NCBI GenBank assembly: GCA_013216135.1
Contig: JABSOS010000004.1
Coordinates: 79,939 to 143,938, forward strand
Length of the DNA stretch: 64,000 nucleotides
Direction of reading: 5' to 3'
Source: Candidatus Caenarcanales bacterium
Lineage (GTDB): Bacteria; Cyanobacteriota; Vampirovibrionia; LMEP-6097
Under the pieces are notes generated by a model. That model was given only the letters and a program-made list of their open reading frames with translations. It was not told the DNA's origin and ran no database searches. Within the stretch, counting starts at the first letter, position 1; each line of letters opens with the position of its first letter. The position numbers and the translations under genes are program-made. Of this stretch, positions 3,779 to 31,943 are shown piece by piece.

Positions 3779-3804
3779 AATTATTATCCTGCGGGATAAT
3801 AATT
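3779..3804. repeat. 26-bp perfect palindrome aattattatccTGCGggataataatt (family copy P1)
   Basis: Exact inverted 11-nt arms. Identical to the copy at 18114-18139. Confidence 0.8.
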
Positions 3805-4148
3805 GAAATGTAATTTTATTTTTATTAGAATAAATGACTTACTTCTGGCTCTTCACCATTTAAGGGAAACTTATGTGAAGGTTTCTAATAAATTATCTAT
3901 GTATAAGCACTATAGGAATAGAAACTCATGGATTTTTTTTAAGCTCTTCCTCATCTGTTTTAAAGTTTCGTAATTGCAACACATTTTCAGCAGCACGGTA
4001 TCGATTATATAGAGATTCTCTTTATGTTTTTAAGGATATATATCCGTAAATTAAATAATTTTGTTTACCTAGCGTCAATGTGAAAGAGAGCAGTACCTAT
4101 AATTCCTCTGACTAAAGTAATTAATGCACCCGTTATATTTGAGCCCAT

Positions 4149-5369
4149 TTATTTTTTAATCTCTCCTTCTGTTGGAGACTTTTGATAAGCTCCCTCTTGA
4201 GAAGACACTTCTGAATCAGGGTCATTATTCTTATTAATGGTTTCATGAGACGAGGCTGGTTTATTATCTTTGTGAATATATTTGAAACTCTCATTACCTC
4301 TTTTTTGTTTCCCAAATAAAAAATGATAAATACCTTTAAAAGCCGAAGTTAAGATACCTTTCTTTTCCTCTTTCTTTTTAGGTAGATTATCTTCTCTTTC
4401 TTCACTTAGCTTTTTGTCTTTAAATAACTGGTAGTAACCTGAACTATTACCAAAAATTTGTGATTTTTGTACATAACCATTATTGTCAAACAAAGCGAAA
4501 CCAGAAATATGCCCACCTAAATACCATTCATTATTTCCTGCTATACGAGAAACCAAATTTTCTTTATGTTTTATTAGACCACCAGCTATAGACTTGTTTA
4601 TGTATAAAATTTTTACTTTTGAAGCTTTATCATCATCTTTTTTATCAGCTTTATAGACATAAGCTTGTGCTATTTCTAATAATATCTCAGAAAGCTTGGT
4701 TTTAACTAAGTCTTTGCTTTCTTGGCTTATATCTTGGCTTTCTGTAACTTTACTATTGATGCTAGACACTAGATCTAAAATACTTGATAATTCTCCCTTT
4801 GATAAAAAAATTATATTTTTTTTTGTAGAGTTAAGAACTTTAGCATTTAAATTTGTATTTTTATGTAATTGAGCTGCAACAATATAGGGAAGTAGATCTG
4901 CCTTAATATTTATTTCATTTGACTCAACAGTCTCTTTATTTATAACAATATCAAGAAGCTTATCTGATAAATCAATCGCTTTTTCAATCGCACCTAAACT
5001 AATAAAGGGTTCATTTATGTGAATTTGATCAAGAAATGGAAAATTTTTGGGTTCAATTTCTTCTACTGACTTTTTGAAAAGTTCTAACTTCTCAATAATA
5101 GATTGACCTTCAAATAAAGGCATTGAATTTGTTACTATTAAATCTTTGGTTTCTTTCAAACAATCTTCAAGAGACAAATTGATATCCTGGGCTGTTTTAC
5201 TTAAACTTTTATAAGCTAACATTTCCTGCATGATATTTTTGACATTAGTTTTTTGGATATTAATCTTTGGAGATTTTTTATTATCAGTAGATGCGTCTTC
5301 CTTATCTTTAGCCAAAGCATAAATAGGGGAACAAAAAAAGATTAATGTGAGGATAAATATAAATCTCAT
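4149..5369 (-). CDS. Secreted Lys/Glu-rich hypothetical protein (signal peptide)
   Basis: 406 aa. N-terminal MRFIFILTLIFFCSPIYALA. Charged low-complexity regions. Confidence 0.5.
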   Translation of the reverse strand: MRFIFILTLIFFCSPIYALAKDKEDASTDNKKSPKINIQKTNVKNIMQEMLAYKSLSKTAQDINLSLEDCLKETKDLIVTNSMPLFEGQSIIEKLELFKKSVEEIEPKNFPFLDQIHINEPFISLGAIEKAIDLSDKLLDIVINKETVESNEINIKADLLPYIVAAQLHKNTNLNAKVLNSTKKNIIFLSKGELSSILDLVSSINSKVTESQDISQESKDLVKTKLSEILLEIAQAYVYKADKKDDDKASKVKILYINKSIAGGLIKHKENLVSRIAGNNEWYLGGHISGFALFDNNGYVQKSQIFGNSSGYYQLFKDKKLSEEREDNLPKKKEEKKGILTSAFKGIYHFLFGKQKRGNESFKYIHKDNKPASSHETINKNNDPDSEVSSQEGAYQKSPTEGEIKK

Positions 5370-5523
5370 TAATATGTATTTTATCTAATAAGCTCTCTAA
5401 CTTATTTAAATATTGTGCTTATCTGGAGAACAATAGAGAAGTTATAATATCGCTTACGCTTTTATACAAATGTTTAAGTTATGTCTTGTGAGAAATCGTT
5501 CAATAATGTAAAATAATTCGATT

Positions 5524-5973
5524 ATGATACCTCTTTGTGAGTACGTCTGTGATACTTGTGGCGAGTTGATTGTTAGTCCTGATGAGGGCTACTTAGAATG
5601 GGTTGGTGGCGTAGGAATAAAAGACCATTCTTTTAAAATCATTCACCACAAACATGAATGTCAGAGGAAAGAAAAAGATCTACCTAATGGTTTTATAAAA
5701 GATGGAAGTTTGAGTCGCTATCTTGGTGTAGAAAATTTGCAAAACCTTTATACCTTACTCCATCCAGGACCTCTTTATGGTAAGGGAAAGGGGATTCTTG
5801 TTGAAGATATCAATGAATATATGGAAATACTCAGAAGGTTGACAATTCCTTACTACGAAGAAGCTCGTATCTATTGGCCATTAGCTGAAGAGGATGGTTT
5901 CTTTTGTGATGTAAATGAAGTATATCCATGCTTAGTTAGTACTCTGAAGTTGATAATAGAAAAATATAAATAA
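5524..5973 (+). CDS. Hypothetical protein with N-terminal CxxxCxxC zinc-ribbon-like motif
   Basis: 149 aa, CEYVCDTCG. No recognisable family. Confidence 0.45.
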   Translation: MIPLCEYVCDTCGELIVSPDEGYLEWVGGVGIKDHSFKIIHHKHECQRKEKDLPNGFIKDGSLSRYLGVENLQNLYTLLHPGPLYGKGKGILVEDINEYMEILRRLTIPYYEEARIYWPLAEEDGFFCDVNEVYPCLVSTLKLIIEKYK

Positions 5974-6014
5974 AATTGAACCTTAGAAGACTTGGAACTC
6001 AATATATCTTCTAC

Positions 6015-6929
6015 CTAAGAGTCAAAAAAATTAAGATTCTTTAGTTCACTATCTTCATCGAAGACATCAAATTTTTTATTAAGATTAAAGTAATTATGAA
6101 AGTGTTTGACGAGCTTGGTTTTTACTGGTTTTAACTTATTCTTATATATTTCTGTTGATAAATAAAAGTTTTCAGTATATAAGAAAATTAATTTTGAGAT
6201 TAGTTCTTTTTGTTGAACTTTATTCATTAATGGAAGTTCTTTTACTAGTAATGTATTAGCAGTCTTGTTGTTTTTTAAAAAAGAAATTGTCACAATCGTA
6301 TCATTATTAAGTGGTATTAAATTAAGTATTATTGGATCTAAATGTTTAAGGCTACATTTCTCTTGGAGTAAATTAACTGGCTCGTGATTGATATCATTTT
6401 CTAAAAAAAAAGCTCCAGAGGCTAAGCAGTGCAAAGAGTCATTAAATATTATTGACACAGAATCTAATACATTATATTTTTTTTGCCATATGCTAGTTAG
6501 TAGCAAATTTTTGTAATACTCTAATCTGTAATACGCAAAGCAGCTTCCAACATCAATAAAGCTTGGATTATGATGGGTATCAAATTTTTCAGCCTGTGAG
6601 TTTATACAATTCATTTTTAATAAGTATTCTTTAGATAGGGTTCTAAGGGATAATTTCTCAATATGTTCTGGATTTGTAAAATCAAAGTTATGATCTTCAA
6701 AGCATTTGAATAATTCTTTGTCGTGATAACCACAAAATCCTCTAAATGTAGATGCTTGCCTTATTCCTATTTCTTCAAAATCACCACTACTCGGGGCTAT
6801 ACTAATAACCCTTCCATTTTTTGCAATTTTTCTCAAAAATTTTTTTGAGATTGAATGAGCCTGGATTATATTATCTTCACAATTTTCTGATTTGGCGACA
6901 CAAAATTTAATTTCTTGGAGAAATCTCAT
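6015..6929 (-). CDS. Hypothetical protein (Cys/His-rich segment GFCGYHDKELFKCFEDHN)
   Basis: 304-aa ORF convergent with 5524-5973. Possible metal-binding or nuclease-like segment, but no confident family. Confidence 0.45.
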   Translation of the reverse strand: MRFLQEIKFCVAKSENCEDNIIQAHSISKKFLRKIAKNGRVISIAPSSGDFEEIGIRQASTFRGFCGYHDKELFKCFEDHNFDFTNPEHIEKLSLRTLSKEYLLKMNCINSQAEKFDTHHNPSFIDVGSCFAYYRLEYYKNLLLTSIWQKKYNVLDSVSIIFNDSLHCLASGAFFLENDINHEPVNLLQEKCSLKHLDPIILNLIPLNNDTIVTISFLKNNKTANTLLVKELPLMNKVQQKELISKLIFLYTENFYLSTEIYKNKLKPVKTKLVKHFHNYFNLNKKFDVFDEDSELKNLNFFDS

Positions 6930-6964
6930 ATAGTAAATTTTAAATCATGAATTTGAGAGAGTTG

Positions 6965-6990
6965 AATTATTATCCCACTGGATAATAATT
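6965..6990. repeat. 26-bp palindrome aattattatccCACTggataataatt (P2)
   Basis: Same 11-nt arms as P1/P6 with a different 4-nt centre. Confidence 0.8.
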
Positions 6991-7116
6991 TAGTAAGCAT
7001 TTGTATATTTGTTCATGATAGATTGCCTAGTTTCTTTCTAAAATGATTTGACAGAATTTTCCACTAAGCTTCTTAAGTCTTTAGGACGGGCTGGTTATTA
7101 TAATAATTAGATAGAT

Positions 7117-8091
7117 ATGCGACATTTTTTCTCTGAAGAAGATCTTTTCCAAATACTAACACCTTATGATTGGTTACACAGACCAGATAAAGAATGTACT
7201 TATTCTTTTAGTCCTAAACCTGGTGAAGGATTCCAAATCTCAATTAATTATTTAAGAGAGCATAAGTATAAGGACAGAGCAAATAAACTTATAGAAACTT
7301 CAAAAAACAATGGATTACCTAAAATTCATAATTTTTATCAATTAGATGATTTTGTCTCTAAAAATGGACTCATTTGTAGAATGTGGGTAAAGAAACAAGC
7401 ATCTAAATTTATTAAAGTTTCAATAACAGCCATGAATATTGATGAACATTTGGAACAAGTGAATAAATGCTTGGAAAGCTTTAGAATAGTAAAACCAAAT
7501 AAAGTTGACCACGTTAAAAGATGGTACAAGTTCGGCAAATTCCTAGAAGGAATGGCTGCAATGATGGCTGTTCTTAATAAATCATTGGAAAATAAATGCT
7601 ATATAGAAAGTGTGTGTGCATATACTAATTTGATAGATGCATATCTCAGATGTGCTCTTATTTTAAAGAATCAAATTAAGAATAGAAATAAAGACCTAGA
7701 TATTAGATGGATTTATCAAGGTATTGATGATAAGCCAATTTCTGAAAAAATGACTTACAAAGAAGCTTTTGAGGAAGGGATTATTAACGAAAAACAAAAA
7801 ACAACTTTAGACACATTATATAATGAGAGAAATAGAGTAATTCATAGATTCATTATTTCAGAAATAAGCTATTTTGATATTGAAGATATTTCATGCCAAC
7901 ACAACAAGTTATTTGAAGAGATTTGGCAAATTGTAAAAGATTTAGAAGATGAACAGATTGCTTTAAATGTTGGCATGACTAAACAAGTTGAGACAGATAT
8001 CAAAGATTTTGATTATCAAATGTTTATAAAAGAGAAATTGGAGTCTTTTACTTTACTAAAGCATTCTTCTAGTAACTATTCTAAAAAGTGA
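7117..8091 (+). CDS. HEPN-like (Abi-type) protein, partner of downstream reverse transcriptase
   Basis: 324 aa. ERNRVIHRF matches the HEPN Rx4-6H motif in the C-terminal third. Sits 96 bp upstream of RT1, co-oriented. Confidence 0.45.
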   Translation: MRHFFSEEDLFQILTPYDWLHRPDKECTYSFSPKPGEGFQISINYLREHKYKDRANKLIETSKNNGLPKIHNFYQLDDFVSKNGLICRMWVKKQASKFIKVSITAMNIDEHLEQVNKCLESFRIVKPNKVDHVKRWYKFGKFLEGMAAMMAVLNKSLENKCYIESVCAYTNLIDAYLRCALILKNQIKNRNKDLDIRWIYQGIDDKPISEKMTYKEAFEEGIINEKQKTTLDTLYNERNRVIHRFIISEISYFDIEDISCQHNKLFEEIWQIVKDLEDEQIALNVGMTKQVETDIKDFDYQMFIKEKLESFTLLKHSSSNYSKK

Positions 8092-8187
8092 AGCGACTAA
8101 TACTGTTTTTAATTGAAAGTTATTATAGCTGGCTTTTTAATAATTCTAAGCCTAGCTGTATAATAATTTTGAGTAAGTATAAATATT

Positions 8188-9594
8188 ATGACTGAGAATT
8201 CAATAACCATAGATGAGCAAGATATTGAATTATTTAACAGTGTATTTTCTAAGGAAAATTTAGAAAATACTTTTAAAAATAAGAAGAGCATATATTCAAA
8301 ACAATCATCTGGAATTGATAGAAAAAGCATTGAAAATTTTGAGAAAGAAACAAAAAATATTTTCCCAAAAATTTTAGAGAAAATAAAGGGTTCTGATTAT
8401 TATTTTTCCCCATATGTAGAAAGTTTATTTTTAAGAGGCCCAGATAAGCAACCACGAAGAATTTCTTTACCTACAATTCGAGATAAATTAACTCTAGACT
8501 TGGTTCGGCAATATTTAAATAAAAAGCTTGGTCAATCAGTAAAGAGGACTTTACCAAATATTTATATAAAGGAAATAAAAAAATTCTTTGAAGATAAGGA
8601 TACGAAATCTCTTAAATATAAAAGAATTGACATTTCAAGTTTTTATAAAAGTATCAATCACATAATTCTTTTGAACTTTCTTAGAAATATTAAAGTTCAT
8701 GATTCTGTTTATACTTTAATTAGAAGAGCTATAAAAACAAATACTTACAACAAATCAGTTTATTTAAGGAAAGACAAGGAAAATAACAATAAAGGTTTAC
8801 CAGAGGGACTTTCCATTTCAAATGTATTGGCTGAGTATTATTTACGTGAGATTGGTTTGATACCTATTCCTCAAGGTGTTTTATACCAACGCTACGTGGA
8901 TGATATTTTGATCTTGTATCAAGACGAACATGCTTTTCAGTCTTTCTATAATAAAATTGAAAGGAAATTCAAGAAACTTGATCTAAATATTTCGAAAGAT
9001 GAAGATAAGACGGGAGAGGGGAATCTTTCTAGTGATAAGGGCTTCAATTTTCTTGGTTATGATTTTAAAAAAGGTAAAATCTATGCAAAGCGAAGATCAC
9101 AGGTAAAGCTTATTAATACAATAATTAAATTGTTTACACAGTATAAGTATAGTACACAAAAAAATGAGTTGAAGAACCGAATATTGATAGAAGATGTTAA
9201 TGAAAAGCTTACTGGCGCTATGTCTGAAAGTATAAAGTATGGTTGGATATTTTTTTTCCGTGAAATAACTGATATTAACTTTTTGTACCAAGTTGATATT
9301 CTTGTGGAAAAGCTTCTTGATAGATATAAGCTTAGTGTTTCTAGTGAAGTGAAAAAAATAAAACAAATCTCAAAAGCTTATTATAAATTGAAAAAAAATG
9401 ACTATAGCTACTGTCATAATTATGATGCATATTCGACATTTTCAGATAAAATAAACTATCTTTCAGGAAGAGTAAAGGAATCTAGAGAAGATTTAAAAAC
9501 TAAGACATTTGAATATATTGATAGTCTATTTAAAGAGGTACGCAATAGAAATTTGAGTAATTTAGAAAAGGATAATGGGGTAGAATCATACTAG
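8188..9594 (+). CDS. Reverse transcriptase (RVT_1; retron/Abi/defense-associated-like, no endonuclease or maturase extension recognised)
   Basis: RT motifs: RRISLPTIRDKLTLDLV (1-2), LPEGLSISNVLAEYYL (4), YQRYVDDILIL (5, YVDD), KLDLNISKDEDKT (6), FNFLGYDF (7). Thumb-like KYGWIFFF. Confidence 0.85.
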   Translation: MTENSITIDEQDIELFNSVFSKENLENTFKNKKSIYSKQSSGIDRKSIENFEKETKNIFPKILEKIKGSDYYFSPYVESLFLRGPDKQPRRISLPTIRDKLTLDLVRQYLNKKLGQSVKRTLPNIYIKEIKKFFEDKDTKSLKYKRIDISSFYKSINHIILLNFLRNIKVHDSVYTLIRRAIKTNTYNKSVYLRKDKENNNKGLPEGLSISNVLAEYYLREIGLIPIPQGVLYQRYVDDILILYQDEHAFQSFYNKIERKFKKLDLNISKDEDKTGEGNLSSDKGFNFLGYDFKKGKIYAKRRSQVKLINTIIKLFTQYKYSTQKNELKNRILIEDVNEKLTGAMSESIKYGWIFFFREITDINFLYQVDILVEKLLDRYKLSVSSEVKKIKQISKAYYKLKKNDYSYCHNYDAYSTFSDKINYLSGRVKESREDLKTKTFEYIDSLFKEVRNRNLSNLEKDNGVESY

Positions 9595-9727
9595 AGTGCC
9601 TTCCTGTAAAATGGAACCAGTGTATTTTATTATACAAAGGGATATTGTTATTTTTGTGCTAGACACTACGAACCATATTCTTATCTAAGCAATATGGGAA
9701 CATCATTAAAAGTGGGCACTCAGATTT
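9594..9727 (+). ncRNA. Candidate structured non-coding element between RT1 and the TM protein, flanked by a 7-bp inverted repeat gagtgcc/ggcactc
   Basis: IR at 9594-9600 and 9715-9721 encloses about 114 nt. Reminiscent of the a1/a2 repeats that flank retron msr-msd, but in an atypical position (downstream of the RT). Confidence 0.2.
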
Positions 9728-10357
9728 ATGTTTAAAGCTATAAAGTCGGAAGTAGAGGATTTTCAAAGAAGAGTTAAAATTACACGTGGAGCCAGATATA
9801 ATGCTTTCAGAAGAAATGAAGCTAAAAGTATTTATTCTTCCTGTACTTTGATATTTTTATCAATATTTATTTTTGCTCTTAATTTACTTCCTTACTATAA
9901 TTTTTTGAATATTGATTTGTTAAAGGATAAGAACTCAAGTATTCAGTTTTCGGCACTAATACTTTCTGTTTTCTTGTTGGTTTTTTCTCTTCTAGAAGCC
10001 AATAATAGTTATAAGTATAATGCAGATAAATTTCATGGTTTTGCTATAGGTCTAGAAAATATTGTAAATGAATTAGATCGATGTTCTTCTGAAAATCAGT
10101 TAGAAAGAATAAAAACAGAGTATGTCGACCAGTTGGAAAAATCTTTTTTGAATCATTTAGAAATTGACTATTTGATTTCATCAGCAAGATACTACACACC
10201 AAGTAGTGATAGTAAATGTTTAGATAAAGTCCTTTATTGGTTGAAAATCATCATTTATGGTACGCGTAATTTTGTTTTTACTTTATTGCCCTATTTATTA
10301 CTTATCTCCCTGTCAGTATATTATGTTGCTTACTGTCAACTTAATATCATTAATTAA
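9728..10357 (+). CDS. Integral membrane protein (about 4 TM), possible effector of the RT cassette
   Basis: 209 aa. Hydrophobic segments IFLSIFIFALNLL, ALILSVFLLVFSLL, FVFTLLPYLLLISLSVYYVAY. Confidence 0.5.
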   Translation: MFKAIKSEVEDFQRRVKITRGARYNAFRRNEAKSIYSSCTLIFLSIFIFALNLLPYYNFLNIDLLKDKNSSIQFSALILSVFLLVFSLLEANNSYKYNADKFHGFAIGLENIVNELDRCSSENQLERIKTEYVDQLEKSFLNHLEIDYLISSARYYTPSSDSKCLDKVLYWLKIIIYGTRNFVFTLLPYLLLISLSVYYVAYCQLNIIN

Positions 10358-10402
10358 TCCTATTTTGACTTAATTGAAAAAATATACTTCAATATTCGTA
10401 AT

Positions 10403-10666
10403 ATGCAAAAGTTTATATTAACCTTGTTCATTTTGCTTGCAGGTTTGTCTTCCTCTGCAAATCTAGATTACTATCAGTCAACAGATAATGATAGATCTAT
10501 TCAACTGCAAGATCAAGTTCAAGAAACTGTTTTTTTCAATACTAAATCTCATAAGTTTCATAAAATGTCTTGTATCTGGGCTAAGAAATGTACTGTTAAC
10601 TGTGTGATAATGGAAAAAGCTGAAGCAATTTTAAAGGGTGTGCCTTGTAAAGTTTGTGGTGGCTGA
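10403..10666 (+). CDS. Small secreted Cys-containing protein
   Basis: 87 aa. Signal-like MQKFILTLFILLAGLSSSA; C-terminal CKVCGG. Confidence 0.35.
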   Translation: MQKFILTLFILLAGLSSSANLDYYQSTDNDRSIQLQDQVQETVFFNTKSHKFHKMSCIWAKKCTVNCVIMEKAEAILKGVPCKVCGG

Positions 10667-10916
10667 TTTTTTACGTAGATAACATCAATAATAATTGAAA
10701 TTTACAATAGCTTAACAGATGAATTTCCTCTGAGGGGATTATTATAATCTGCACCTATACTTAACATCAAACAAAGGTACAGATTCTTTTTTAAGCTTGT
10801 TTAGATTCAGTTATGCGATATTTTCTCTAAGTAAATTTACATAATTACAAAACTACAGACTATTTTTAAAACTTCTATATATTTTTTAAGAAAGAGAAGT
10901 AATAACTTAATCGTGT

Positions 10917-10942
10917 GATTATTATTCCTAAGGATAGAAAAC
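10917..10942. repeat. Palindrome-family copy P3 with hybrid arms (tgattattattcc TAA ggatagaaaacc)
   Basis: Left arm is ttattatcc-type; right arm is ggatagaaa-type as in P5. Confidence 0.6.
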
Positions 10943-11071: not shown

Positions 11072-11893
11072 TTGAAAATAACTCCTAATAAATTATATTC
11101 AAATTATCTAGTAGTATACTTTGACGTACTAGGTTGGAAAGATTTAACTTTAAATAGCCCGCTTGCCTGCAGTTTTGTGTCTAACCGGATTAATGGTCTT
11201 AGATATAAATTAAAATCGAGAAGTATCTTTAGTCGTGAAAAAGTAATATCATTCTTCTTCTCTGATTCCGTAATACTAACCCTTGAGCTTCCAATGGATA
11301 ATGAAAATAATTTAGAAAAACAAAAAATAATATTTTATCAAATTGCAGAATTGCAGTCAGAATTGTTTGAAAATTGGGGAGTGTTATTAAGAGGATTTAT
11401 CACTATTGGAGAATGTTTTATAGATCCTTTTGAACATGTTTGTTTTGGACCAGCAATTAATAAATCAGTATTGAAAGAGAAACTTATTTGTTTTCCAAAA
11501 ATAGTTTTAGATAAGGATCATTTTCCAGATAAGCTGATGGTTAATAATTCTAGGCAAAATTCTGTCCAAATTAATAGAAAAGATTCTTGGTGGAACAAAA
11601 AAGCACATAGAGGTGAATGTTATGAAGAATTTAAAGAAATTCAAGAATCTTTCTTCCTTGATTATATTAAGGTTCAAAAAAACTCATTAGATCGTTACGT
11701 TGGAGGATTCAATCAAGTCAACAACTTTCGTACATCCTTTAGAAGTAAATTAAATAAACAAATCACAAATGATGTGACAATGCAAAATGAGAAATTAAGC
11801 TTGAAATATATCTGGCTCACAAAATATTACGACAAGTGTTTTAGAAAAAATTCTTTTCATTTAGATTATAAAAATTTCACTAAATCCAATTAA
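11072..11893 (+). CDS. Class III nucleotidyl cyclase-like (CHD / palm fold) protein, tentative
   Basis: VVYFDVLGW resembles the cyclase FADIVGFT metal-binding motif. FFFSDSVILTL resembles the GD second-metal motif. LLRGFITIGECF ... FGPAINKSVLKE resembles RIGIHTG ... GDTVNxASRME. TTG start. Confidence 0.35.
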   Translation: MKITPNKLYSNYLVVYFDVLGWKDLTLNSPLACSFVSNRINGLRYKLKSRSIFSREKVISFFFSDSVILTLELPMDNENNLEKQKIIFYQIAELQSELFENWGVLLRGFITIGECFIDPFEHVCFGPAINKSVLKEKLICFPKIVLDKDHFPDKLMVNNSRQNSVQINRKDSWWNKKAHRGECYEEFKEIQESFFLDYIKVQKNSLDRYVGGFNQVNNFRTSFRSKLNKQITNDVTMQNEKLSLKYIWLTKYYDKCFRKNSFHLDYKNFTKSN

Positions 11894-11969
11894 TGATTTA
11901 TGTTGAACTTTTAATCAACCGTAAGTAATTACGTCTTGAATTACTTTCTAATGCTATTTTAATATATTA

Positions 11970-14900
11970 ATGTTTAGTGATAGCTATTTTTTAGAATTAC
12001 AATTTGAAAATAGGGTGTATAGTCTAAACTCTTATGAATTTCAGAAATTTTTTGAAGATATTATGCTAAAAAAATTTCCTGGACATTTTCAAAGAGTTAG
12101 ACCATATGGAAATAAAGGTGATGGTGGTAATGACGGTTTCATGAAAGAGGATGGGAAGTATTTTCAATCCTACGCACCTTTAAAAGTCAATGAAGACAAA
12201 GAAAAAGAAGCTATACAAAAGTTTAGAGATGACTTTCAAAAACTCTTATCAAGTGAATGGGGCAATTTTTCTAAAATTAAAGAATATTACTTTGTTTATA
12301 ACGATAAATTTTATGGCACTACTATCGAATTTGAGAAAGAACTTCACGTTTACCAAGAGGGTTACCCACAAATAAAATTTTATTTATTAGGAACAGATCA
12401 ACTTAAATCCATATTCAAAGAATTAAGTGAAGATGATTATAAAAGTCTAAATTTTAATACAGATAAATCAGCTTCTCATCTTATTGTAGAAGCATACCTT
12501 AATAATATTGAGAATCAAATAAAATTAAACAATGTTCATATTGCTGAAAATGCACTAGACTTATTAGACCAAATCCTTAATTCTGAGGAATTAAAAAAAA
12601 ATTCACAATATATTGATCTCTATATTAAGAACTCTGTCATGAAGTATAAGTATTTTTTACTAAAAGAGAGATTTCAAAATGCTATTGACACCTTAGAAAA
12701 ACTAACTGCAAGATATCCTGAACGTTGTGAACCACTTTTACATCTGGCTGATTATTACTGTAGCCAGGATGAGATAAACTTAGCTTCAAGCTTATATGAA
12801 AAAGCAACAACAAAAATAAATTTTGGTGATTATTGGCTTAATAAATATGTTCCAATATATATCAAAATTAAAAGTAATTTGTCCTTTGTTGAAGATGATT
12901 TTGTCTTATTGAGAAGCTTGAATGATAATCAAAGAGCATGTTTCTATAGATTATTTTCTATGTATTACTTAAATAAAGATATAGAAAAATCTCTTGAATA
13001 TATAGATAAAGCTATAGAGTTTGACCCAAAAAATCTCTCTTTTATTCTAACTAAACTCAATATATACAAAGCTCAGTTAGTGAATAACTATTCTGAAAAA
13101 CTGTATAGGCTTGAATTTGTAGATAATATGGAAAAAGTTATTATCTATATTGATGAATCTTTTTCTTTCATATCCGTTAGAAGTAAATTACTTTTACAGA
13201 TGAATAAACTCTGTATTCTCTGGTGTCAAGAGAAAATACAAAGCTGTATTCTGTTACTTGAAGGTATTTCAGAGTTACTGGTTGAATGTGATTTTAATAA
13301 AGGAATCGATTCTGTAATCTGTGAGCTATTAACTTCAGTTGTAACTCCAGACCTATTTGAAGTTATTCTTGATTATTGCCTAGATAATAAATCCAAACAA
13401 TTTTCTGATTTATTACTAAAATTAATTTTCAATCATGCGCTAAGGGATCAAAAATTAAAACAACAAGCTCAAGTTTTTTTTGAATCAATTTCAGCCAATC
13501 AGGGCTCTAAATATATAAAACTAATGAGCTTTATTAACTCTGGAGATGAAGAAGAATTTATTAAAATTGTTAGTGCTGACACTAATTTTCTTCTAATGCT
13601 GGCAGAAACATTAAAGATAAATCCTGAATTTAGGAAAAAAATAATTTTTCATTTGAGAGACTCTAATAATGAATATTCAAATATACTTTATACAATATTT
13701 TTATTTGATATTGGTGAAGATAAAGAGGCTTTTGAGTATTTAAAAAAAATTGATTTGAGAAACATAACAGTTCCCCAATATGATCCTTTACTCAGAGTTG
13801 CTTTGAAAAATGAAGCTTGGGATTTGGCTGAAATAATAATAGTGCAAATAATTGATAAAGAAGAAAATGATAAATATCGATATTTTTTAAATACACAGTT
13901 ATTAAACTGCTATGTTCATTTAGGAAAGCACCTTGAAGCAACAAAAGTTGGAAAAGCCTTATTAAAGTCGGAACAATTTAATAGTTCTGATACTGAAAAA
14001 ATTTTAGAGCTGTTACTATATTCTTACCTCAAACTGAGTCAACATTCTAATAGATATAAAAATGAGGTAAAAGAAATATATTATAGTTATCGTGAATATA
14101 ATTTTTCTTTGAATTTTCTTTTAAATATTGCTAGTTTTGTTCATGCATATCTTGGTACAGGTGATGACCTTGTAAGTTTAATAGTCAGATCTATATCCAA
14201 ATTAAATAAAAATCCAAATCCACTGGAGTATGCTCAAATATTTACGGTTCTAACTTTAAAAAACCAAGTCAAAATTGATATTGAGTCTAGTAAGAAAACT
14301 GTTACTGAAGATTCATTTGTGAAAATTATAGAAGATGATGACTGGTACTATATTGGTAACGGAAATTGTTTATGTGCTATTCCTCTTCAAGAAACACAAA
14401 CTAAATACCATCAACTATTCAATGCCTCTTTAGGTGACAAAAATATTGAAAAGATATTTGATTTAAGGCAATTTTTATACTATAAAGCTAGGGAAATATT
14501 TAATAAACAAATAGAAAAAGATAATTTGGACAATATGAAGAAATTCAACTTACTGGATTCTTCGGGTAATATTGATATAAATAGATTTAAAGATACAATA
14601 GCTGAGTTACAAAACTCTGAATCTACATTTTTTGATAAATATTCTGAAAATACATATCCATTAGCTATGCTTGCTTTATTTGAAGGAGGTTTAATACCTT
14701 CAATTGCAAAGATTCAGAGAGAAAATAAAGGCTACATTCACTCAAGTGATGGAAGTATTAATGAAATTGAAAGACAAAGCTCGCTTATTAAAGAGTTGAT
14801 TAAAGCTAAGTCTGAGCTTTACATTGATACAACATCAATTCTTTTCTTAAGTGAGGTGGGTATTTTTAACCACTTTATTAATTTATTTTCAAAGTACAAA

Positions 14901-15788
14901 ATAGTTCAGTCATCAATTAATTTTTTGTCTGACACTTTAGACACCTATAAATATAGGAAGGGAACATTGGGAACTGCAAGTGTCATAAATAATGAGCTTG
15001 TTTACTTACCTTTCAATAAAGCTCGAAAGAAGCAAATTCAAAAATTTGAGAAAAGGTTACTTGAATCAATTAAGTTTCTCAATAAGGATCTCAACAGGAT
15101 TGATTCATTATCAAAAGCTTCAAAGTCTTCTGTTCCTTCTGAACAGAGAATACCACCAGAACTCTGTGATGGAGCGATTATGGCTAAGAAAAATAAATTG
15201 CCAATTATGACAGATGACTATGTTTACCTTCACTGGAACGCTCTTGAGACAAACTTAGAACCACCTCAATATTTTTCATCTATAGCTTTTTTAGAGTATT
15301 TGTATGAGCAAAAAATAATAAATTTTGAAGAATACTTGGATTGCTTTTATTATTTCTCTTCATATAGATTTAGGTTTATGAGTATCAATAAACAGATTTT
15401 GTATAAAACTATATTTGGTGATGATCTTATAGTGTTGGTTAATCCAGGTAACATAAGGAAACTTAACCTTCATTTGATTTTATCAAGAGACTATGGTGTT
15501 TCACTTCAAAATTGTTTTAGATTAATTGGTGAGTTTGTTTATGATTTAGTAAAAAACAAATCAATAATATTTAGTGTACTGAATGATGTTTTAATCAGTT
15601 TATTAAATTATCTACCACTTGAATATAAATCCATCTTGTCTTATAAAATGATTGTTGACTATTGTACAAAGAGATACGAAGCTGAAAAAAAAGAAAGAAC
15701 AATTATTGACTTGAAAAATGACTTTCTAGAGAAGAGGTTAAGTCAATTACAAGATGTGTGTGGTTTAACCACTCTCTTGAAATTTTAG
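11970..15788 (+). CDS. 1272-aa protein: N-terminal Mrr-like PD-(D/E)xK nuclease motif + long alpha-helical/TPR-like repeat region; no Walker A
   Basis: YGNKGDGGNDGF ... YFQSYAPLKV resembles the Mrr_cat GxDGGxDG signature. The rest is predicted helical repeats. No GxxxxGK[ST]. Confidence 0.6.
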   Translation: MFSDSYFLELQFENRVYSLNSYEFQKFFEDIMLKKFPGHFQRVRPYGNKGDGGNDGFMKEDGKYFQSYAPLKVNEDKEKEAIQKFRDDFQKLLSSEWGNFSKIKEYYFVYNDKFYGTTIEFEKELHVYQEGYPQIKFYLLGTDQLKSIFKELSEDDYKSLNFNTDKSASHLIVEAYLNNIENQIKLNNVHIAENALDLLDQILNSEELKKNSQYIDLYIKNSVMKYKYFLLKERFQNAIDTLEKLTARYPERCEPLLHLADYYCSQDEINLASSLYEKATTKINFGDYWLNKYVPIYIKIKSNLSFVEDDFVLLRSLNDNQRACFYRLFSMYYLNKDIEKSLEYIDKAIEFDPKNLSFILTKLNIYKAQLVNNYSEKLYRLEFVDNMEKVIIYIDESFSFISVRSKLLLQMNKLCILWCQEKIQSCILLLEGISELLVECDFNKGIDSVICELLTSVVTPDLFEVILDYCLDNKSKQFSDLLLKLIFNHALRDQKLKQQAQVFFESISANQGSKYIKLMSFINSGDEEEFIKIVSADTNFLLMLAETLKINPEFRKKIIFHLRDSNNEYSNILYTIFLFDIGEDKEAFEYLKKIDLRNITVPQYDPLLRVALKNEAWDLAEIIIVQIIDKEENDKYRYFLNTQLLNCYVHLGKHLEATKVGKALLKSEQFNSSDTEKILELLLYSYLKLSQHSNRYKNEVKEIYYSYREYNFSLNFLLNIASFVHAYLGTGDDLVSLIVRSISKLNKNPNPLEYAQIFTVLTLKNQVKIDIESSKKTVTEDSFVKIIEDDDWYYIGNGNCLCAIPLQETQTKYHQLFNASLGDKNIEKIFDLRQFLYYKAREIFNKQIEKDNLDNMKKFNLLDSSGNIDINRFKDTIAELQNSESTFFDKYSENTYPLAMLALFEGGLIPSIAKIQRENKGYIHSSDGSINEIERQSSLIKELIKAKSELYIDTTSILFLSEVGIFNHFINLFSKYKIVQSSINFLSDTLDTYKYRKGTLGTASVINNELVYLPFNKARKKQIQKFEKRLLESIKFLNKDLNRIDSLSKASKSSVPSEQRIPPELCDGAIMAKKNKLPIMTDDYVYLHWNALETNLEPPQYFSSIAFLEYLYEQKIINFEEYLDCFYYFSSYRFRFMSINKQILYKTIFGDDLIVLVNPGNIRKLNLHLILSRDYGVSLQNCFRLIGEFVYDLVKNKSIIFSVLNDVLISLLNYLPLEYKSILSYKMIVDYCTKRYEAEKKERTIIDLKNDFLEKRLSQLQDVCGLTTLLKF

Positions 15789-15812
15789 ACTTAAACTAGA
15801 TATGAATAACGT

Positions 15813-15838
15813 AATTATTATCCCTAAGGATAGAAAAG
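15813..15838. repeat. Palindrome-family copy P4, hybrid arms (aattattatccc TAA ggatagaaaag)
   Basis: Same hybrid architecture as P3. Confidence 0.6.
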
Positions 15839-16010
15839 AAAGTATTTATTTTATGGGCTAAATACCAATTCTAAGATTTAGTCATCGTTTTCAATGAAGA
15901 TGTATATCTAAATTTTCTTAAGCTTTGCTTTCTAATACACATAAAAATATAATCTATTTATGGTCTATGTAGTAAATTCTCAGTCTGTAGATAAATTAAA
16001 CTTATAAGTT

Positions 16011-16517
16011 ATGAGATCAGTCTTATTTATAATTCTCACATTATTTGTTTTTGCTGGAGGTTATTATGCTGGTAAAAATTCCAAGAATCTAGAATTTACT
16101 GATTCAAAGCCAGAGCTTTTTGTTAAAGCTGAAACAAAGATGGAAAGTTATCAAAACACCTATCTAAAACCTCTAAGGGTAATTGATGGTGACACCATAG
16201 AATTTGAAATAGTTAATCTCCCATATCCAGAAATCTCTATTCTAAAGCTTAGAATCTTCGGAGTTGATACTCCTGAAAAGTCATGGCGTACAAAATGTGA
16301 ACAAGAGAAAAATCTAGCAAACCTAGCTTCATCTTTTACAGAAGACTTATTTAATAAAGCAGATCATAAAGAGATAAAGCTTATGAAGTGGGGTAAATAC
16401 GGTGGTAGGGTTTTAGGTGATATTTATTTAGATGGTAAATCTTTAAAAGAAGAGCTTTTAAGTAAAGGGTTAGCTAAAGAATACTTTGGTAAGGAAAAGG
16501 TATCTTGGTGTGAATAA
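16011..16517 (+). CDS. Secreted/membrane-anchored thermonuclease (staphylococcal nuclease, SNase family)
   Basis: N-terminal hydrophobic anchor. VIDGDTIEF, RIFGVDTPEK, KYGGRVLGDIY match the SNase Ca-binding and catalytic motifs. Confidence 0.8.
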   Translation: MRSVLFIILTLFVFAGGYYAGKNSKNLEFTDSKPELFVKAETKMESYQNTYLKPLRVIDGDTIEFEIVNLPYPEISILKLRIFGVDTPEKSWRTKCEQEKNLANLASSFTEDLFNKADHKEIKLMKWGKYGGRVLGDIYLDGKSLKEELLSKGLAKEYFGKEKVSWCE

Positions 16518-16519
16518 TG

Positions 16520-16545
16520 AATTTCTATCCCTCGGGATAGAAATT
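16520..16545. repeat. 26-bp perfect palindrome aatttctatccCTCGggatagaaatt (P5)
   Basis: Variant arm type (ttctatcc). Starts 3 nt after the nuclease stop. Confidence 0.8.
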
Positions 16546-16827
16546 AAGGTGCTATAAAAACCAAAATAAGTTAAAATTTCTTTGGGGTATATAGCACTAT
16601 ACCTCGGGGCTTCAAAACCTCTCAATCAGCAGTCGATAGAGATATACGACTGTTTAAATACGATATCTCCTGGCTAAAAGCTTCCTCTTTAGCCGGGAGA
16701 CTCTATTATGTCCAAAGCCTTTTGGCTTAAAAATAGAGTGGTCGTCTGATTGCGATTTTTGAACTCCCGGCTATATATTATTTATTTAATACATAGCTAA
16801 TCTAACAAAAAATAAAGGGAGATTAGT

Positions 16828-17994
16828 GTGCAAAACTCAGATAAGCAAGAGAATATCTTATATAAACTAGCGAAGCTCGCTTCAGGACCAAATATATTAC
16901 TAGTATCTAGTGTCTACTACTACATAGCTTTTAAATATTTAAGCTATTTTGAAGAGAGCGATGCTTTTAGAATTCTCACTTGTCTAATTTTAATCAGTAT
17001 CGCAACCATGATTTATGAGGCAGCGACAAATAAAGATCCTAAAGTTGTCTGTAATAGATTCGCCTGGTCTAATTTAGAAAAAACACTTGCTTATGCATTA
17101 ATTATCTGGGCTTTGTTTTGGGGATATGGGTTTATAGATAGAGTAATAAATCCAACTGAAAAAATTCCAGTCGAGATTAAAGAAGAAGAGCAAAGTAATG
17201 ATACTCAGAACTCAGTAAAACAAGAAGAGGATAAAATCGAAGAAAAACAGTGGGACTCTAATGAGCCTGTTAGTTTTGAAAACTTACTTGCAGAAAATAC
17301 AGAAGAAGGTGTTTTAGTTACCGGGGAAACAAATTTACCTGATGGAGCAATTTTAAGAGTAGGTCTAGAATTAAAATCTAACTGGAAAATTAGTACTCAT
17401 AATTCTGTAAAAATTGAAGATGGGAAATTTGAGGCTTTGCTTTGTTCATACCAGCCTTGTAGGTCTGGTCTATATATAGTTTCGGTATTACTCCCTATGC
17501 AACATGATGCAGAAATCGTTGAGATTCTAGGTAGGCTAAATAAAAAAATTAGGGGAGATTTAGTCAAAGGTAATGATGGTGATCTAAAAACTGCGAAGAA
17601 AGAATTTGATTTCCAGCTTAATAACTCAGCAGAGGATACTAAGCTGAAAGCAAAAAGACAGCTTGCAAGTGACTTATTAAATAAATATCAAAACTTATAT
17701 AATGAATTGATCTCTTTTAAAAATCAACCTAGCTTTCATAGACTTGGCTTTAGTCAAGGTTCTACCTATGCTAGTTGGAAAGCAAGAGTCGGAGAATTAG
17801 AACAAGAATTTAGAGATTCTGATATTTTTGTGCCTGGGAAAAAACCTATTATTGTTCAGCCAAGTACCTTAAAGGTTTTAGGTAATTCCTATATGAGAAG
17901 TCGGGGGCAAGAAACTTCGAATACTCTTCATAATCGTCACTTGTTTGAAGAACTCTTCGACGATAAGGGGAATATACTAAATCAGTTTTACTAA
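16828..17994 (+). CDS. Membrane-anchored hypothetical protein (2-3 N-terminal TM, large soluble C-terminal domain)
   Basis: 388-aa ORF. No family recognised. Confidence 0.5.
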   Translation: MQNSDKQENILYKLAKLASGPNILLVSSVYYYIAFKYLSYFEESDAFRILTCLILISIATMIYEAATNKDPKVVCNRFAWSNLEKTLAYALIIWALFWGYGFIDRVINPTEKIPVEIKEEEQSNDTQNSVKQEEDKIEEKQWDSNEPVSFENLLAENTEEGVLVTGETNLPDGAILRVGLELKSNWKISTHNSVKIEDGKFEALLCSYQPCRSGLYIVSVLLPMQHDAEIVEILGRLNKKIRGDLVKGNDGDLKTAKKEFDFQLNNSAEDTKLKAKRQLASDLLNKYQNLYNELISFKNQPSFHRLGFSQGSTYASWKARVGELEQEFRDSDIFVPGKKPIIVQPSTLKVLGNSYMRSRGQETSNTLHNRHLFEELFDDKGNILNQFY

Positions 17995-18113
17995 GATTTT
18001 GAAATACTCCGTCAGTTTAGCTATGGAGAAACTCCGTATTTATGATTTTCATTCGCGAGTGAAAGCAGAAAATAGCAAATCTCTATGCCACCTTGTATTA
18101 AGTAGTAGTGATT

Positions 18114-18139
18114 AATTATTATCCTGCGGGATAATAATT
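18114..18139. repeat. 26-bp perfect palindrome identical to P1 (P6)
   Basis: aattattatcctgcgggataataatt. Confidence 0.8.
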
Positions 18140-18578
18140 AGAAGTAAGGAAGTAAATAAAAAACTAATTATAAAAAGAGCATTTTAGAAGTTTATAAAAG
18201 ATGTACTAAAGCTTAATACCCTTATAAATACTCAAGTTCTGTGAATAGTCAATTGCTAATTTTGTTTTTAGTAGGTTGCAAAGCTGCTTGCAGAAGGATA
18301 TTTAAAAATAATGATTACGGTTAGATTAATTTTTTTTAACCTTTCTGCTGGTAAAATTTCTGAAAGTCTTATCAGTTTTGAGATCTGAATGAAGATTACT
18401 TTCAGTGAAAATTCACTTATTATTGATTTATTTTTCGTTCTTTTGGATAGTGGCTCTAGGACTTGGATATGAATATTTGCATTTTTTAGATTTTTAAAAA
18501 TAAATAAATATTCAAATGCTGAATTGGGTTTTACTAACATTTTTTTCTGTCTTATATCGAAGAGATAAATTAATTTTG

Positions 18579-18604
18579 ATTTATTATCCCGCGGGATAAT
18601 AAAT
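18579..18604. repeat. 26-bp perfect palindrome atttattatcccGCgggataataaat (P7)
   Basis: 12-nt perfect arms; lies 89 bp upstream of the tyrosine recombinase gene. Confidence 0.8.
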
Positions 18605-31938: not shown

Positions 31939-31943
31939 AGACA

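What the first reader, a model, noticed from the sequence alone, without database searches (positions are those of the whole stretch)
3779..18604. Family of seven 26-bp perfect or near-perfect palindromes that partition the island into cassettes, including hybrid-arm copies
Seen: 26-bp palindromes at 3779, 6965, 10917, 15813, 16520, 18114 and 18579. Two arm types occur, ttattatcc and ttctatcc. The 4-nt centres vary (TGCG, CACT, TAA, CTCG, GC). Copies 3779 and 18114 are identical. Copies 10917 and 15813 combine a left arm of one type with a right arm of the other (ggatagaaa), as expected from crossover between sites. All seven lie in intergenic gaps and each bounds a functional module (Lys-rich protein; HEPN-RT-TM; cyclase-giant; SNase; membrane protein; recombinase-RT). 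None were noticed outside the island. They lack T-tracts, so they are unlikely to be terminators. Inference: they may be recombination sites for cassette gain or shuffling, possibly used by the internal tyrosine recombinase at 18693 that sits 89 bp from the last copy. Alternatively they may be operator sites of an island-encoded dimeric regulator.
Basis: seen in the sequence. Interest (0 to 1): 0.75.

Follow-up and report, generated by a model that had tools for sequence, protein, structure and literature searches.

The report
Palindromic sites bounding mobile-element cargo modules
A family of eight near-identical 26-bp palindromes sits only at the boundaries of gene modules in a mobile element inserted at a tRNA-Asn gene of a marine Melainabacteria genome; they look most like recombinase sites for swapping defence-gene modules, but this is unproven.

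Summary
Seven 26-bp palindromes lie at the stated coordinates: five perfect, and two hybrid copies that are 23/26 identical to each other. An eighth copy lies 3.8 kb left of the window. The invariant core is TATCC-N4-GGATA. None occurs in about 60 kb of adjoining sequence. Scans of GTDB genomes, JGI metagenomes and IMG/VR give only scattered single hits, apart from one orthologous copy beside tRNA-Asn in a related MAG.

The "island" is a tandem array of elements integrated at tRNA-Asn in a Candidatus Caenarcaniphilales MAG. There are three tRNA 3' fragments, arm-type repeats at both ends, and an integrase at the right end. The palindromes fill every large intergenic gap between the left att arm and a second, Xer-like recombinase (YR2, 18693).

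Best reading (about 0.4): simple lox/dif-like core sites at which cargo modules were joined or exchanged, as with Acinetobacter pdif modules. The evidence is exchangeable arm types, homology that stops exactly at a palindrome edge, and matched-centre pairs flanking segments.

Rivals are operator/promoter sites (about 0.27) and hairpin elements (about 0.12). Related elements lack such palindromes, the centres mostly differ, and no cassette polymorphism could be found. The sites are not integron attC sites, genome-wide REPs or canonical terminators.

The parts
3598..3642 (+). tRNA-Asn(GUU) 3' fragment B (anticodon loop to CCA). It is the left attachment site of element E2.
   Evidence: It matches the intact tRNA-Asn found by ARAGORN in relative L006. 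ARAGORN finds no whole tRNA in the window.
3647..3680 (+). Canonical intrinsic terminator (hairpin plus T-run) after the tRNA fragment, upstream of P1.
   Evidence: It is conserved in copy A and in L006.
3717..3734 (+). Tandem TTAACACTA x2. Inferred to be arm-type integrase sites of the left (P') att arm.
   Evidence: The inverted counterpart lies at 25622-25646.
3779..3804 (+). Palindrome P1 (A/A arms, centre TGCG), at the inner edge of the conserved att arm.
   Evidence: Its 205-bp left flank is duplicated at copy A, and the homology ends at 3804.
3805..6964 (.). Module M1: three genes in -,+,- orientation (406, 149 and 304 aa, unknown function). There is no palindrome in its internal gaps.
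6965..6990 (+). Palindrome P2 (A/A arms, centre CACT), in a divergent intergenic region.
   Evidence: It also reads as the promoter-like match TTGAAT-16-AATAAT.
6991..10916 (+). Module M2: 324-aa protein, UG17 reverse transcriptase, SLATT effector and 87-aa protein (a DRT-type defence system).
10917..10942 (+). Palindrome P3 (hybrid: A-type left arm, B-type right arm). It does not fold as a hairpin.
10943..15812 (+). Module M3: 273-aa and 1272-aa proteins (weak TPR and PIN-like matches).
15813..15838 (+). Palindrome P4 (hybrid A/B; 23/26 identical to P3), 25 nt after a stop codon.
15839..16519 (+). Module M4: a single staphylococcal-nuclease-like gene.
16520..16545 (+). Palindrome P5 (B/B arms, centre CTCG), 3 nt after a stop codon.
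16546..18113 (+). Module M5: 388-aa membrane protein with its own terminator-like hairpin at 18022-18038.
18114..18139 (+). Palindrome P6, identical to P1 and to copy A.
18140..18578 (.). M6: 439 bp, probably non-coding. The 90-aa ORF on the minus strand looks spurious.
   Evidence: No Pfam, PADLOC or NCBIfam hit.
18579..18604 (+). Palindrome P7, fully symmetric with both arms carrying the same outer change. It lies 88 nt upstream of YR2.
18693..19709 (+). YR2: 338-aa Xer-like simple tyrosine recombinase. It is the candidate enzyme for the palindromes.
   Evidence: The catalytic R, K, H, R, H and Y are invariant in alignment A2. It is homologous to the second recombinase of related elements.
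24477..25682 (-). YR1: the tRNA-Asn-targeting integrase of the element. The true start is probably near 25601.
25622..25646 (-). TGGTRTTAA x2.8, the reverse complement of TTAAYACCA. Inferred arm-type repeats of the right (P) att arm.
25702..25751 (+). tRNA-Asn 3' fragment C, the right attachment site and original chromosomal tRNA end.
   Evidence: Relative L116 has the same layout.
25752..25791 (+). Perfect hairpin with an 18-bp stem, the native terminator after the tRNA end. It is not a member of the palindrome family.

Best explanation
The 26-bp palindromes are most likely simple core-type sites for a tyrosine recombinase: two inverted binding arms of 9-11 bp around a short crossover centre, of the lox/dif kind. 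YR2 at 18693 is the most probable enzyme, and a host Xer is an alternative.

**Shown.**
- The window holds a tandem array of elements integrated at tRNA-Asn.
- Element E2 (3598-25751) has both att arms and an integrase at its right end.
- All cargo between the left att arm and YR2 is cut into modules by the palindromes.

**Inferred.**
- Circular or linear segments carrying a matching site were joined at these sites, so defence systems and other cargo accumulated and can be exchanged as units.
- Sites with the same centre could still recombine. These are copy A, P1 and P6 (TGCG), and P3 with P4 (CTAA). Recombination would excise 7.6 kb, 14.3 kb or 4.9 kb.
- Sites with unique centres would be fixed junctions.
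For: 1. **Anatomy.** The inner core TATCC/GGATA is invariant and the 4-nt centre is free. The outer arms occur as discrete types that assort as units: A/A (copy A, P1, P2, P6), a symmetric variant (P7), B/B (P5) and A/B (P3, P4).
2. **Half-sites, not pairing, are conserved.** The A/B hybrids keep both half-sites but lose hairpin stability: -1.2 and -2.5 kcal/mol, against -7.1 to -8.6 for the others.
3. **Placement.** Every intergenic gap of at least 187 bp between 3.5 and 18.7 kb holds a copy.
   - One is in a divergent promoter region (P2).
   - One is in a convergent region (P1).
   - The promoter and terminator gaps inside three-gene module M1 have none.
4. **Homology break.** The 205-bp left ends of two adjacent elements are 97-98% identical, and the similarity stops at the last base of the palindrome.
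5. **Matched pairs.** Identical or near-identical sites flank segments as direct repeats (P1/P6, copy A/P1, P3/P4).
6. **Candidate proteins.**
   - The only recognisable sequence-specific DNA-binding proteins in E2 are two tyrosine recombinases.
   - YR1 has its own arm-type repeats and a tRNA core site.
   - YR2 is Xer-like, intact, has all catalytic residues and starts 88 nt from P7.
7. **Specificity.**
   - There are no copies in about 60 kb of adjoining sequence.
   - The nearest relative's genome has one copy, at tRNA-Asn.
   - No palindrome family of this kind appears in 1.6 Mb of other fetched loci.
Against: - The centres differ between most sites (TGCG, CACT, CTAA, CTCG, CGCG). Classical tyrosine recombinases need matching crossover regions.
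- No reciprocal B/A hybrid exists.
- P7, next to YR2, has two identical variant arms. That is not what repeated insertion at that site would leave.
- YR2 homologues in related Melainabacteria elements (L115, L116, L119, L122, L123) have no comparable palindromes nearby. In three of these loci (L115, L116, L119) the gene is split into 2-3 ORFs.
- No alternative junctions or module polymorphism were found. Near-identical strains show the same order.
- Five of seven independent copies carry TG just 5' of the palindrome, and a + strand gene starts 88-282 nt downstream in six of eight. That fits a promoter/operator reading equally well.
Confidence: 0.4

Rival explanations
1. The palindromes are operator or promoter sites. 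An element-encoded dimeric regulator binds them to co-regulate or silence each cargo module. Precedents I recall from the literature are the KorA/KorB operators scattered over IncP plasmids and the repressor 'stoperators' of cluster A mycobacteriophages.
For: - The half-sites are dyad-symmetric with a free centre. The core has 5-N4-5 geometry, like CRP/FNR-type sites.
- The hybrid sites keep both half-sites.
- Six of eight copies have a + strand gene starting 88-282 nt downstream. Three of those gaps are 121, 126 and 129 nt.
- Canonical terminators of the upstream unit precede P1, P3 and P6, as expected if the palindrome belongs to the next unit.
- The 5' TG plus the left arm gives a -35-like TGAAT, and the right arm a -10-like AATAAT at 16 nt. 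P2 scores 9/12.
Against: - No HTH or other regulator was detectable in E2 by Pfam, PADLOC, NCBIfam or PHROGs.
- P1 faces the 3' end of a convergent gene, and P6 faces 439 bp of non-coding DNA.
- Promoters inside M1 and in the 7 kb right of P7 have no copy.
- Discrete arm types with both-arm changes are not expected for one regulator.
- The promoter scan finds no more matches than in shuffled sequence in this AT-rich DNA (85 against 88.5).
- The 5' TG is absent in the orthologous copy of the relative.
Confidence: 0.27
2. The palindromes are hairpin-forming elements that act in RNA or single-stranded DNA. They could be unconventional terminators, 3' mRNA stabilisers, or a small REP-like repeat that spread inside the element.
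For: - Six of eight copies are perfect 11-13-bp stems, with z-scores of -3.6 to -8.2.
- Changes in P5 (two positions) and P7 (one position) occur on both arms and keep pairing.
- P5 and P4 lie 3 and 25 nt after stop codons.
- Several loops fit UNCG/YNMG tetraloop patterns (my reading of the sequences).
Against: - There is no T-run after any copy, and the stems are AT-rich with only 2-4 G:C pairs.
- Canonical terminators already sit between the upstream gene and P1, P3 and P6.
- P2 lies between divergent gene starts.
- P3 and P4 have lost pairing yet keep their half-sites.
- The copies are confined to 22 kb of one element, with one copy in the relative's genome. There is no genome-wide spread.
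- Independent terminators would not share one sequence.
Confidence: 0.12
3. The palindromes are passive junction or linker sequences. Each copy is a relic of the conserved att-arm end of a formerly separate element. Alternatively it is a 26-bp patch of identity used only by general homologous recombination, with no dedicated protein and no present function.
For: - The palindrome is the last conserved element of the att arm in copy A, in P1 and in the relative's copy.
- Tandem accretion at this tRNA is evident from three tRNA fragments.
- A 26-bp identity is near the minimum length for RecA-dependent exchange (my own knowledge).
Against: - The interior copies have no trace of the tRNA fragment, terminator or arm repeats beside them. 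Deletions would have had to end exactly at the palindrome each time, which itself implies site-specific breakage.
- Relics would be expected to decay, yet five of seven copies in the window are perfect.
Confidence: 0.1

Closest known systems
pdif sites and dif modules of Acinetobacter plasmids (Xer-dependent modules; PMC6449649, PMC13141974, PMC7399989)
   Same: - Many copies of a short recombinase core-like site (inverted arms around a short centre) lie in intergenic DNA and cut the accessory region of a mobile element into discrete gene modules.
- The arms occur in different combinations.
- The mechanism of module movement is inferred mainly from comparative structure.
   Different: - pdif sites are 28 bp (11-6-11) with distinct XerC and XerD arms, and they flank modules in alternating orientation.
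- They are used by the host XerC/XerD and sit on plasmids.
- Here the sites are 26 bp, with nearly identical arms, and all lie in one orientation.
- They sit on a chromosomally integrated tRNA element in Melainabacteria. A single element-encoded Xer-like recombinase is the candidate enzyme.
- Module mobility is documented for dif modules but not here.
Integrons (IntI, attI, attC cassette arrays)
   Same: - A tyrosine recombinase gene lies next to an array of gene units, each ending in a palindromic site.
- Some units are single genes (M4, M5).
- The cargo is rich in defence genes, as I recall for Vibrio chromosomal integrons.
   Different: - attC sites are 55-141 bp imperfect hairpins with R/L boxes and extrahelical bases, and they are recombined as folded single strands. 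These sites are 26 bp and the hybrids do not fold.
- YR2 scores far below the integron-integrase models.
- The modules can hold several genes in both orientations, with their own terminators.
- The recombinase is co-oriented with the array and downstream of it.
Single-recombinase Xer systems with the site beside the gene (XerS/difSL, XerH/difH, archaeal XerA/dif)
   Same: - YR2's best family and structure matches are XerA, XerC/D and XerH.
- A palindromic site (P7) lies just upstream of the gene. That is the layout I recall for difSL/xerS.
   Different: - Those systems have one chromosomal site used for dimer resolution.
- Here there are eight sites in a mobile element, and the scores are below every family cut-off.
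- There is no sequence similarity to known dif sites.
tRNA-targeting cargo elements in tandem arrays (tycheposons of Prochlorococcus; bioRxiv 10.1101/2020.12.28.424599)
   Same: - The context matches: integrase-bearing elements integrate at a tRNA and leave partial tRNAs.
- They stack in tandem and carry defence or niche cargo plus a replication module. Relatives L115, L116, L122 and L123 carry a primase next to YR2.
   Different: - That paper mentions no palindromes or hairpins.
- A palindrome-partitioned cargo region is not a described feature of tycheposons.
- The host here is a non-photosynthetic relative of cyanobacteria.
REP/BIME elements with RAYT transposases
   Same: Short palindromes in intergenic DNA, with a conserved short motif just 5' of the hairpin.
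   Different: - REPs are present in tens to hundreds of copies genome-wide and are linked to a RAYT gene.
- Here there are eight copies confined to one element, none in the adjoining core genome, and one in the relative's genome.

Membership tests
Integron | An IntI-type integrase with the integron-specific extra domain, scoring above the family cut-off | tested here: not met
   TIGR02249 gives 50.6 bits against a cut-off of 265. NF011946 gives 27.7 against 435. Only residues 186-248 match.
Integron | attC sites of 55-141 bp with R''/L''/L'/R' boxes that fold as imperfect hairpins | tested here: not met
   The sites are 26 bp and have no RYYYAAC/GTTRRRY pair. P3 and P4 do not fold.
Integron | An array of mostly single, promoterless, co-oriented ORF cassettes downstream of attI and Pc, with intI divergent | tested here: not met
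   M1 has three genes in -,+,- orientation. M2 and M3 are multi-gene. Terminators lie inside modules. YR2 is co-oriented with the array and downstream of it.
Xer/dif and pdif-module systems | A core site of two inverted arms of about 11 bp around a 6-8-bp centre | tested here: inconclusive
   The sites can be read as 11-4-11, 10-6-10 or 9-8-9. There is no sequence similarity to E. coli dif by my inspection.
Xer/dif and pdif-module systems | A recombinase that is a member of XerC, XerD, XerA, XerS or XerH | tested here: not met
   The best hit is XerA at 112.7 bits against a cut-off of 220. XerC gives 84 against 335 and XerD 78 against 330. PDB sequence hits to XerA/XerC-like chains reach 3e-15. 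YR2 is Xer-like but not a member.
Xer/dif and pdif-module systems | Multiple sites that bound discrete accessory modules of a mobile element | tested here: met
   Eight sites bound modules M0-M7.
Xer/dif and pdif-module systems | The same module found in different contexts, flanked by the sites | tested here: inconclusive
   The island proteins occur only in this MAG population. Variant contigs are 99.8% identical with the same order. No informative relatives were available.
REP/BIME | Many copies dispersed through the intergenic DNA of the genome | tested here: not met
   There are no copies in window 18.6-64 kb, or in 15.8 kb further left and 3.2 kb further right. There is one strict match in the related GTDB genome. 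The rest of this MAG could not be read.
REP/BIME | An associated RAYT (Y1 HUH) transposase | not tested
   No such domain occurs among the island ORFs. ORFs of the rest of the window and genome were not scanned.
Intrinsic terminator | A G+C-rich stem followed by a T-run at the end of a transcription unit | tested here: not met
   None of the seven is listed by the terminator scan. Canonical terminators lie upstream of P1, P3 and P6. P2 lies between divergent starts.
tRNA-integrated element (context) | Direct repeats of a tRNA 3' part at both ends, an integrase next to one end, and arm-type repeats | tested here: met
   There are tRNA-Asn fragments at 3598-3642 and 25702-25751, plus copy A. The integrase is at 24477-25682. 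Inverted TTAAYAC repeats lie at both arms. Relatives L115 and L116 have the same layout with an intact tRNA-Asn.

The most novel reading that the evidence does not exclude
A previously undescribed cargo-capture platform inside tRNA-integrating elements of Melainabacteria. A Xer-like second recombinase (YR2) would use 26-bp lox/dif-like palindromes to gain, lose and shuffle whole defence systems as cassettes. It would be functionally like an integron or a dif-module system but built from different parts.
Probability: 0.25. Interest if true: 0.8.

Novelty: new variant of a known kind. Interest (0 to 1): 0.55.

Why it matters
How defence islands are assembled and reshuffled is an open question. 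Known modular platforms are few: integrons, Acinetobacter dif modules and phage or satellite hotspots.

If these palindromes are recombinase sites, they would show a third, independently built cassette system. It would sit in a poorly studied phylum, inside a tycheposon-like element. It would also provide a small, testable recombinase-and-site pair (338 aa and 26 bp).

If they turn out to be operators, they would still define a compact regulon that co-controls several defence systems on one element.

Tried and rejected
- **Genome-wide REP or donor-genome repeat: rejected.**
  - The scan of 185,579 GTDB genomes gave 36 scattered single hits, near my chance estimate. The only multi-hit genome (BP7.bin44) has a different 38-bp palindrome.
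  - The JGI metagenome scan gave 68 single hits, none homologous to the window.
  - Two IMG/VR scans gave 4 and 22 single hits.
- **Integron attC: rejected** on site length, fold and integrase score.
- **Canonical terminators: rejected**.
- **Known RNA family:** no Rfam match at gathering score in the window.
- **Conserved flanks, MITE or target duplication:** flanks are unrelated except copy A against P1.
- **Cassette polymorphism:** exact-protein look-ups found only the same arrangement.
- **A conserved YR2 site in relatives:** none found near YR2 or integrase homologues. The 48 IMG/VR loci of distant recombinases were uninformative.
- **Other Caenarcaniphilales elements:** the P0063 integrase loci map to a different hotspot and have no palindromes.
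- **An element-encoded regulator:** none detected.
- **Structured RNA:** none in the non-coding stretches after P1 and P6.
- **Similarity of P1 plus its right flank to E. coli dif:** judged coincidental, because it is absent at the other copies.

Full report
**1. The observation**

Reading the sequence confirms seven 26-bp palindromes at 3779, 6965, 10917, 15813, 16520, 18114 and 18579. I call them P1 to P7.

- P1, P2, P5, P6 and P7 are perfect, with stems of 11-13 bp.
- P1 and P6 are identical.
- P3 and P4 have an A-type left arm (ATTATTATCC) and a B-type right arm (GGATAGAAAA). They align with each other without a gap and differ at three positions.

The family is far beyond chance.

- TATCC-N1-8-GGATA occurs 6 times against 0.42 expected.
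- The 26-mer with up to 3 mismatches occurs 4 times against 0 expected.
- A weight-matrix scan finds no further copy, even a degenerate one.
- All seven are intergenic in a region that is about 80% coding. My arithmetic gives p of about 1e-5.

**2. Where the window comes from, and what the "island" is**

The window is part of a 300-kb scaffold of a marine MAG named Candidatus Caenarcaniphilales, a member of the Melainabacteria. The runs are ocean metagenomes.

Extending the sequence to the left (L039) revealed an eighth copy. I call it copy A.

- It is identical to P1 and P6 and lies at window position -3785.
- About 205 bp to its left are 97-98% identical to the left flank of P1, and the similarity ends at the last base of the palindrome.

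That shared stretch has four parts:

- the 3' part of tRNA-Asn(GUU), from the anticodon loop to CCA;
- a canonical terminator;
- a spacer with tandem TTAACACTA repeats;
- the palindrome.

A third tRNA-Asn fragment lies at 25702-25751. On one side is an integrase (24477-25682, minus strand). On the other is an 18-bp-stem hairpin, followed by metE.

Inverted copies of the TTAAYAC repeat lie between that integrase and the fragment. So 3598-25751 is a complete integrated element, E2, with both att arms.

The flanking segments are as follows.

- To the left of E2 is a 7.5-kb segment, E1. It carries CorA, two MscS genes, MerR, two HSP20 genes, HtrA and VbhA-Fic, and begins with copy A.
- Further left is a prophage-like region with DnaB, ERF and SSB.

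Homologous integrases in other Melainabacteria sit in 9-10-kb elements at an intact tRNA-Asn. Their att layout matches that of E2. This is the tandem accretion at a tRNA described for tycheposons.

**3. Distribution**

All eight copies lie between -3785 and 18604.

- The next 45 kb of the window has none, and neither does the 3.2 kb beyond its right end.
- The prophage-like region to the left also has none.
- The nearest relative in GTDB (ALOHA_ZT_4) has exactly one strict match. It follows the intact tRNA-Asn, terminator and spacer, and is orthologous to copy A.
- All other hits in GTDB genomes, JGI metagenomes and IMG/VR are single, scattered and unrelated.

The rest of this MAG could not be read.

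**4. Anatomy relative to genes**

Between 3.5 and 18.7 kb, every intergenic gap of 187 bp or more has a palindrome and every shorter gap has none.

| Module | Content |
|---|---|
| M1 | three genes in -,+,- orientation, unknown function |
| M2 | 324-aa protein, UG17 reverse transcriptase, SLATT effector and 87-aa protein |
| M3 | 273-aa and 1272-aa proteins |
| M4 | an SNase-like gene |
| M5 | a membrane protein |
| M6 | 439 bp with only a doubtful ORF |
| right of P7 | YR2, a SIR2-like protein, a second reverse transcriptase, DUF3800 and the integrase |

Several placements bear on function.

- P2 lies between divergent gene starts.
- P1 faces the 3' end of a convergent gene.
- The divergent and convergent gaps inside M1 have no copy.
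- Canonical terminators lie between the upstream gene and P1, P3 and P6.

The palindromes therefore mark module boundaries. They are not found at every promoter or every terminator.

**5. What the sequence variation says**

- The inner core TATCC/GGATA is invariant and the 4-nt centre is free.
- The outer arms occur as discrete types that behave as units: A/A, B/B, A/B and a symmetric variant in P7.
- P5 and P7 carry the same change on both arms.
- P3 and P4 mix arm types and lose hairpin stability: -1.2 and -2.5 kcal/mol, against -7.1 to -8.6 for the others.

This pattern fits double-stranded half-site recognition with exchange of arms. It fits selection for a hairpin less well.

Five of seven independent copies have TG directly 5' of the palindrome. 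My estimate for that is p of about 3e-4, so the sites are oriented. The orthologous copy in the relative lacks the TG.

**6. Candidate proteins**

Searches with Pfam, PADLOC, NCBIfam and PHROGs find no regulator in E2.

The two tyrosine recombinases are paralogues with 31% identity.

- **YR1** is the tRNA integrase and has its own arm repeats.
- **YR2** is 338 aa and starts 88 nt after P7.
  - It is Xer-like but below every family cut-off.
  - It has R, K, H, R, H and Y invariant in an alignment with its nearest relatives.
  - Those relatives share 33-35% identity with it.
  - They sit next to a primase in elements of the same family.

None of these related elements has a comparable palindrome family.

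**7. Explanation**

I rank a recombination-site reading first, at about 0.4. On this reading the palindromes are simple lox/dif-like core sites, most likely for YR2, at which cargo modules were joined and could be exchanged.

It is the only reading that accounts for all of the following together:

- the arm-type assortment;
- the homology break at the palindrome edge;
- the matched-centre direct repeats that flank segments (copy A/P1/P6, and P3/P4);
- the placement in both divergent and convergent gaps;
- the presence of a simple recombinase that otherwise has no site.

It has real weaknesses.

- Most centres are unlike one another.
- There is no reciprocal hybrid.
- There is no conserved site in relatives.
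- There is no polymorphism evidence.

The ranked readings are:

| Reading | Confidence | Main point for or against |
|---|---|---|
| recombination sites | about 0.40 | see the lists above |
| operator/promoter | about 0.27 | downstream-gene bias, -35/-10-like features and upstream terminators fit; no regulator found, and two orphan copies |
| hairpin, terminator or REP-like | about 0.12 | weakened by the non-folding hybrids, the missing T-runs, P2's position and the confinement to one element |
| passive relic or linker | about 0.10 | would need deletions ending exactly at each palindrome |

**8. Comparison with known systems**

The closest analogue in how it would work is the pdif/dif-module system of Acinetobacter plasmids. 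It differs in site length, symmetry, orientation, recombinase and host.

It is not an integron, because the integrase score, the site length and fold, and the cassette layout all fail. It is not a Xer family member by score. The context is a tycheposon-like tRNA element.

I rate it a new variant of a known kind, with function unproven.

**9. Limits**

- The rest of the source genome could not be scanned.
- The island's proteins exist only in this population, so module mobility could not be tested.
- Every functional statement about the palindromes is inference from sequence.

Noticed in passing
L039 5592-5801 (window about -3970 to -3760): An eighth palindrome copy lies outside the window. It sits with a second tRNA-Asn fragment, terminator and arm repeats, upstream of CorA. 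The 7.5-kb segment it heads (CorA, two MscS genes, MerR, two HSP20 genes, HtrA, VbhA-Fic) has no integrase.
   Followed up: yes
L127 1-9600 (left of L039): A prophage-like region (DnaB helicase, ERF, SSB and many small ORFs) lies left of tRNA fragment A. The intact tRNA-Asn of this genome was not reached.
   Followed up: partly
window 29521-29620: A second copy (83% identical) of the tRNA-Asn terminator lies here. It is preceded by GGGGGAGCCA and followed by tandem TAAACATTA x2, like an att arm. ARAGORN finds no tRNA and Rfam gives no hit reaching a gathering score. It may be a remnant attachment site.
   Followed up: partly
window 31524-32187: This region is 90-95% identical to loci of another Caenarcaniphilales population (L177-L186) that carry an intact Fic gene followed by an integrase (P0063). 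The window keeps only a gapped remnant, so this looks like a second integration hotspot.
   Followed up: partly
window 35321-36278: The core-genome MscS gene is 82% identical at DNA level to the MscS gene carried in segment E1. The element cargo therefore includes a paralogue of a host gene.
   Followed up: no
window 19742-22020: A SIR2-like protein is followed by a reverse transcriptase that scores 146 bits on the group II intron RT model (cut-off 300). No intron RNA was found by Rfam. In relatives a primase occupies this position next to YR2.
   Followed up: no
L116 17885-18840; L119 19451-20316; L115 16837-17893: YR2 homologues in three related elements are split into two or three overlapping ORFs. 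This could be frameshift, decay or assembly error. The copies in the window and in L122 and L123 are intact.
   Followed up: no
window 18268-18540 (minus strand): The 90-aa ORF between P6 and P7 has a junk-like composition and no family match. The 698 bp between the M5 gene and YR2 is probably non-coding.
   Followed up: partly
L018, L030, L033, L036 (MAG BP7.bin44): An unrelated MAG has at least four copies of a 38-bp perfect palindrome, CTCTTACATTATTATCCGATCGGATAATAATGTAAGAG. It contains the searched 22-mer and appears to be a separate repeat family.
   Followed up: no
L010, L017, L026 (Paenibacillus species): The same site, GCAAGGTG-TTATTATCCATGAGGATAATAA, recurs once each in three Paenibacillus genomes with similar flanks. 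It is probably a conserved regulatory or terminator site unrelated to this finding.
   Followed up: no
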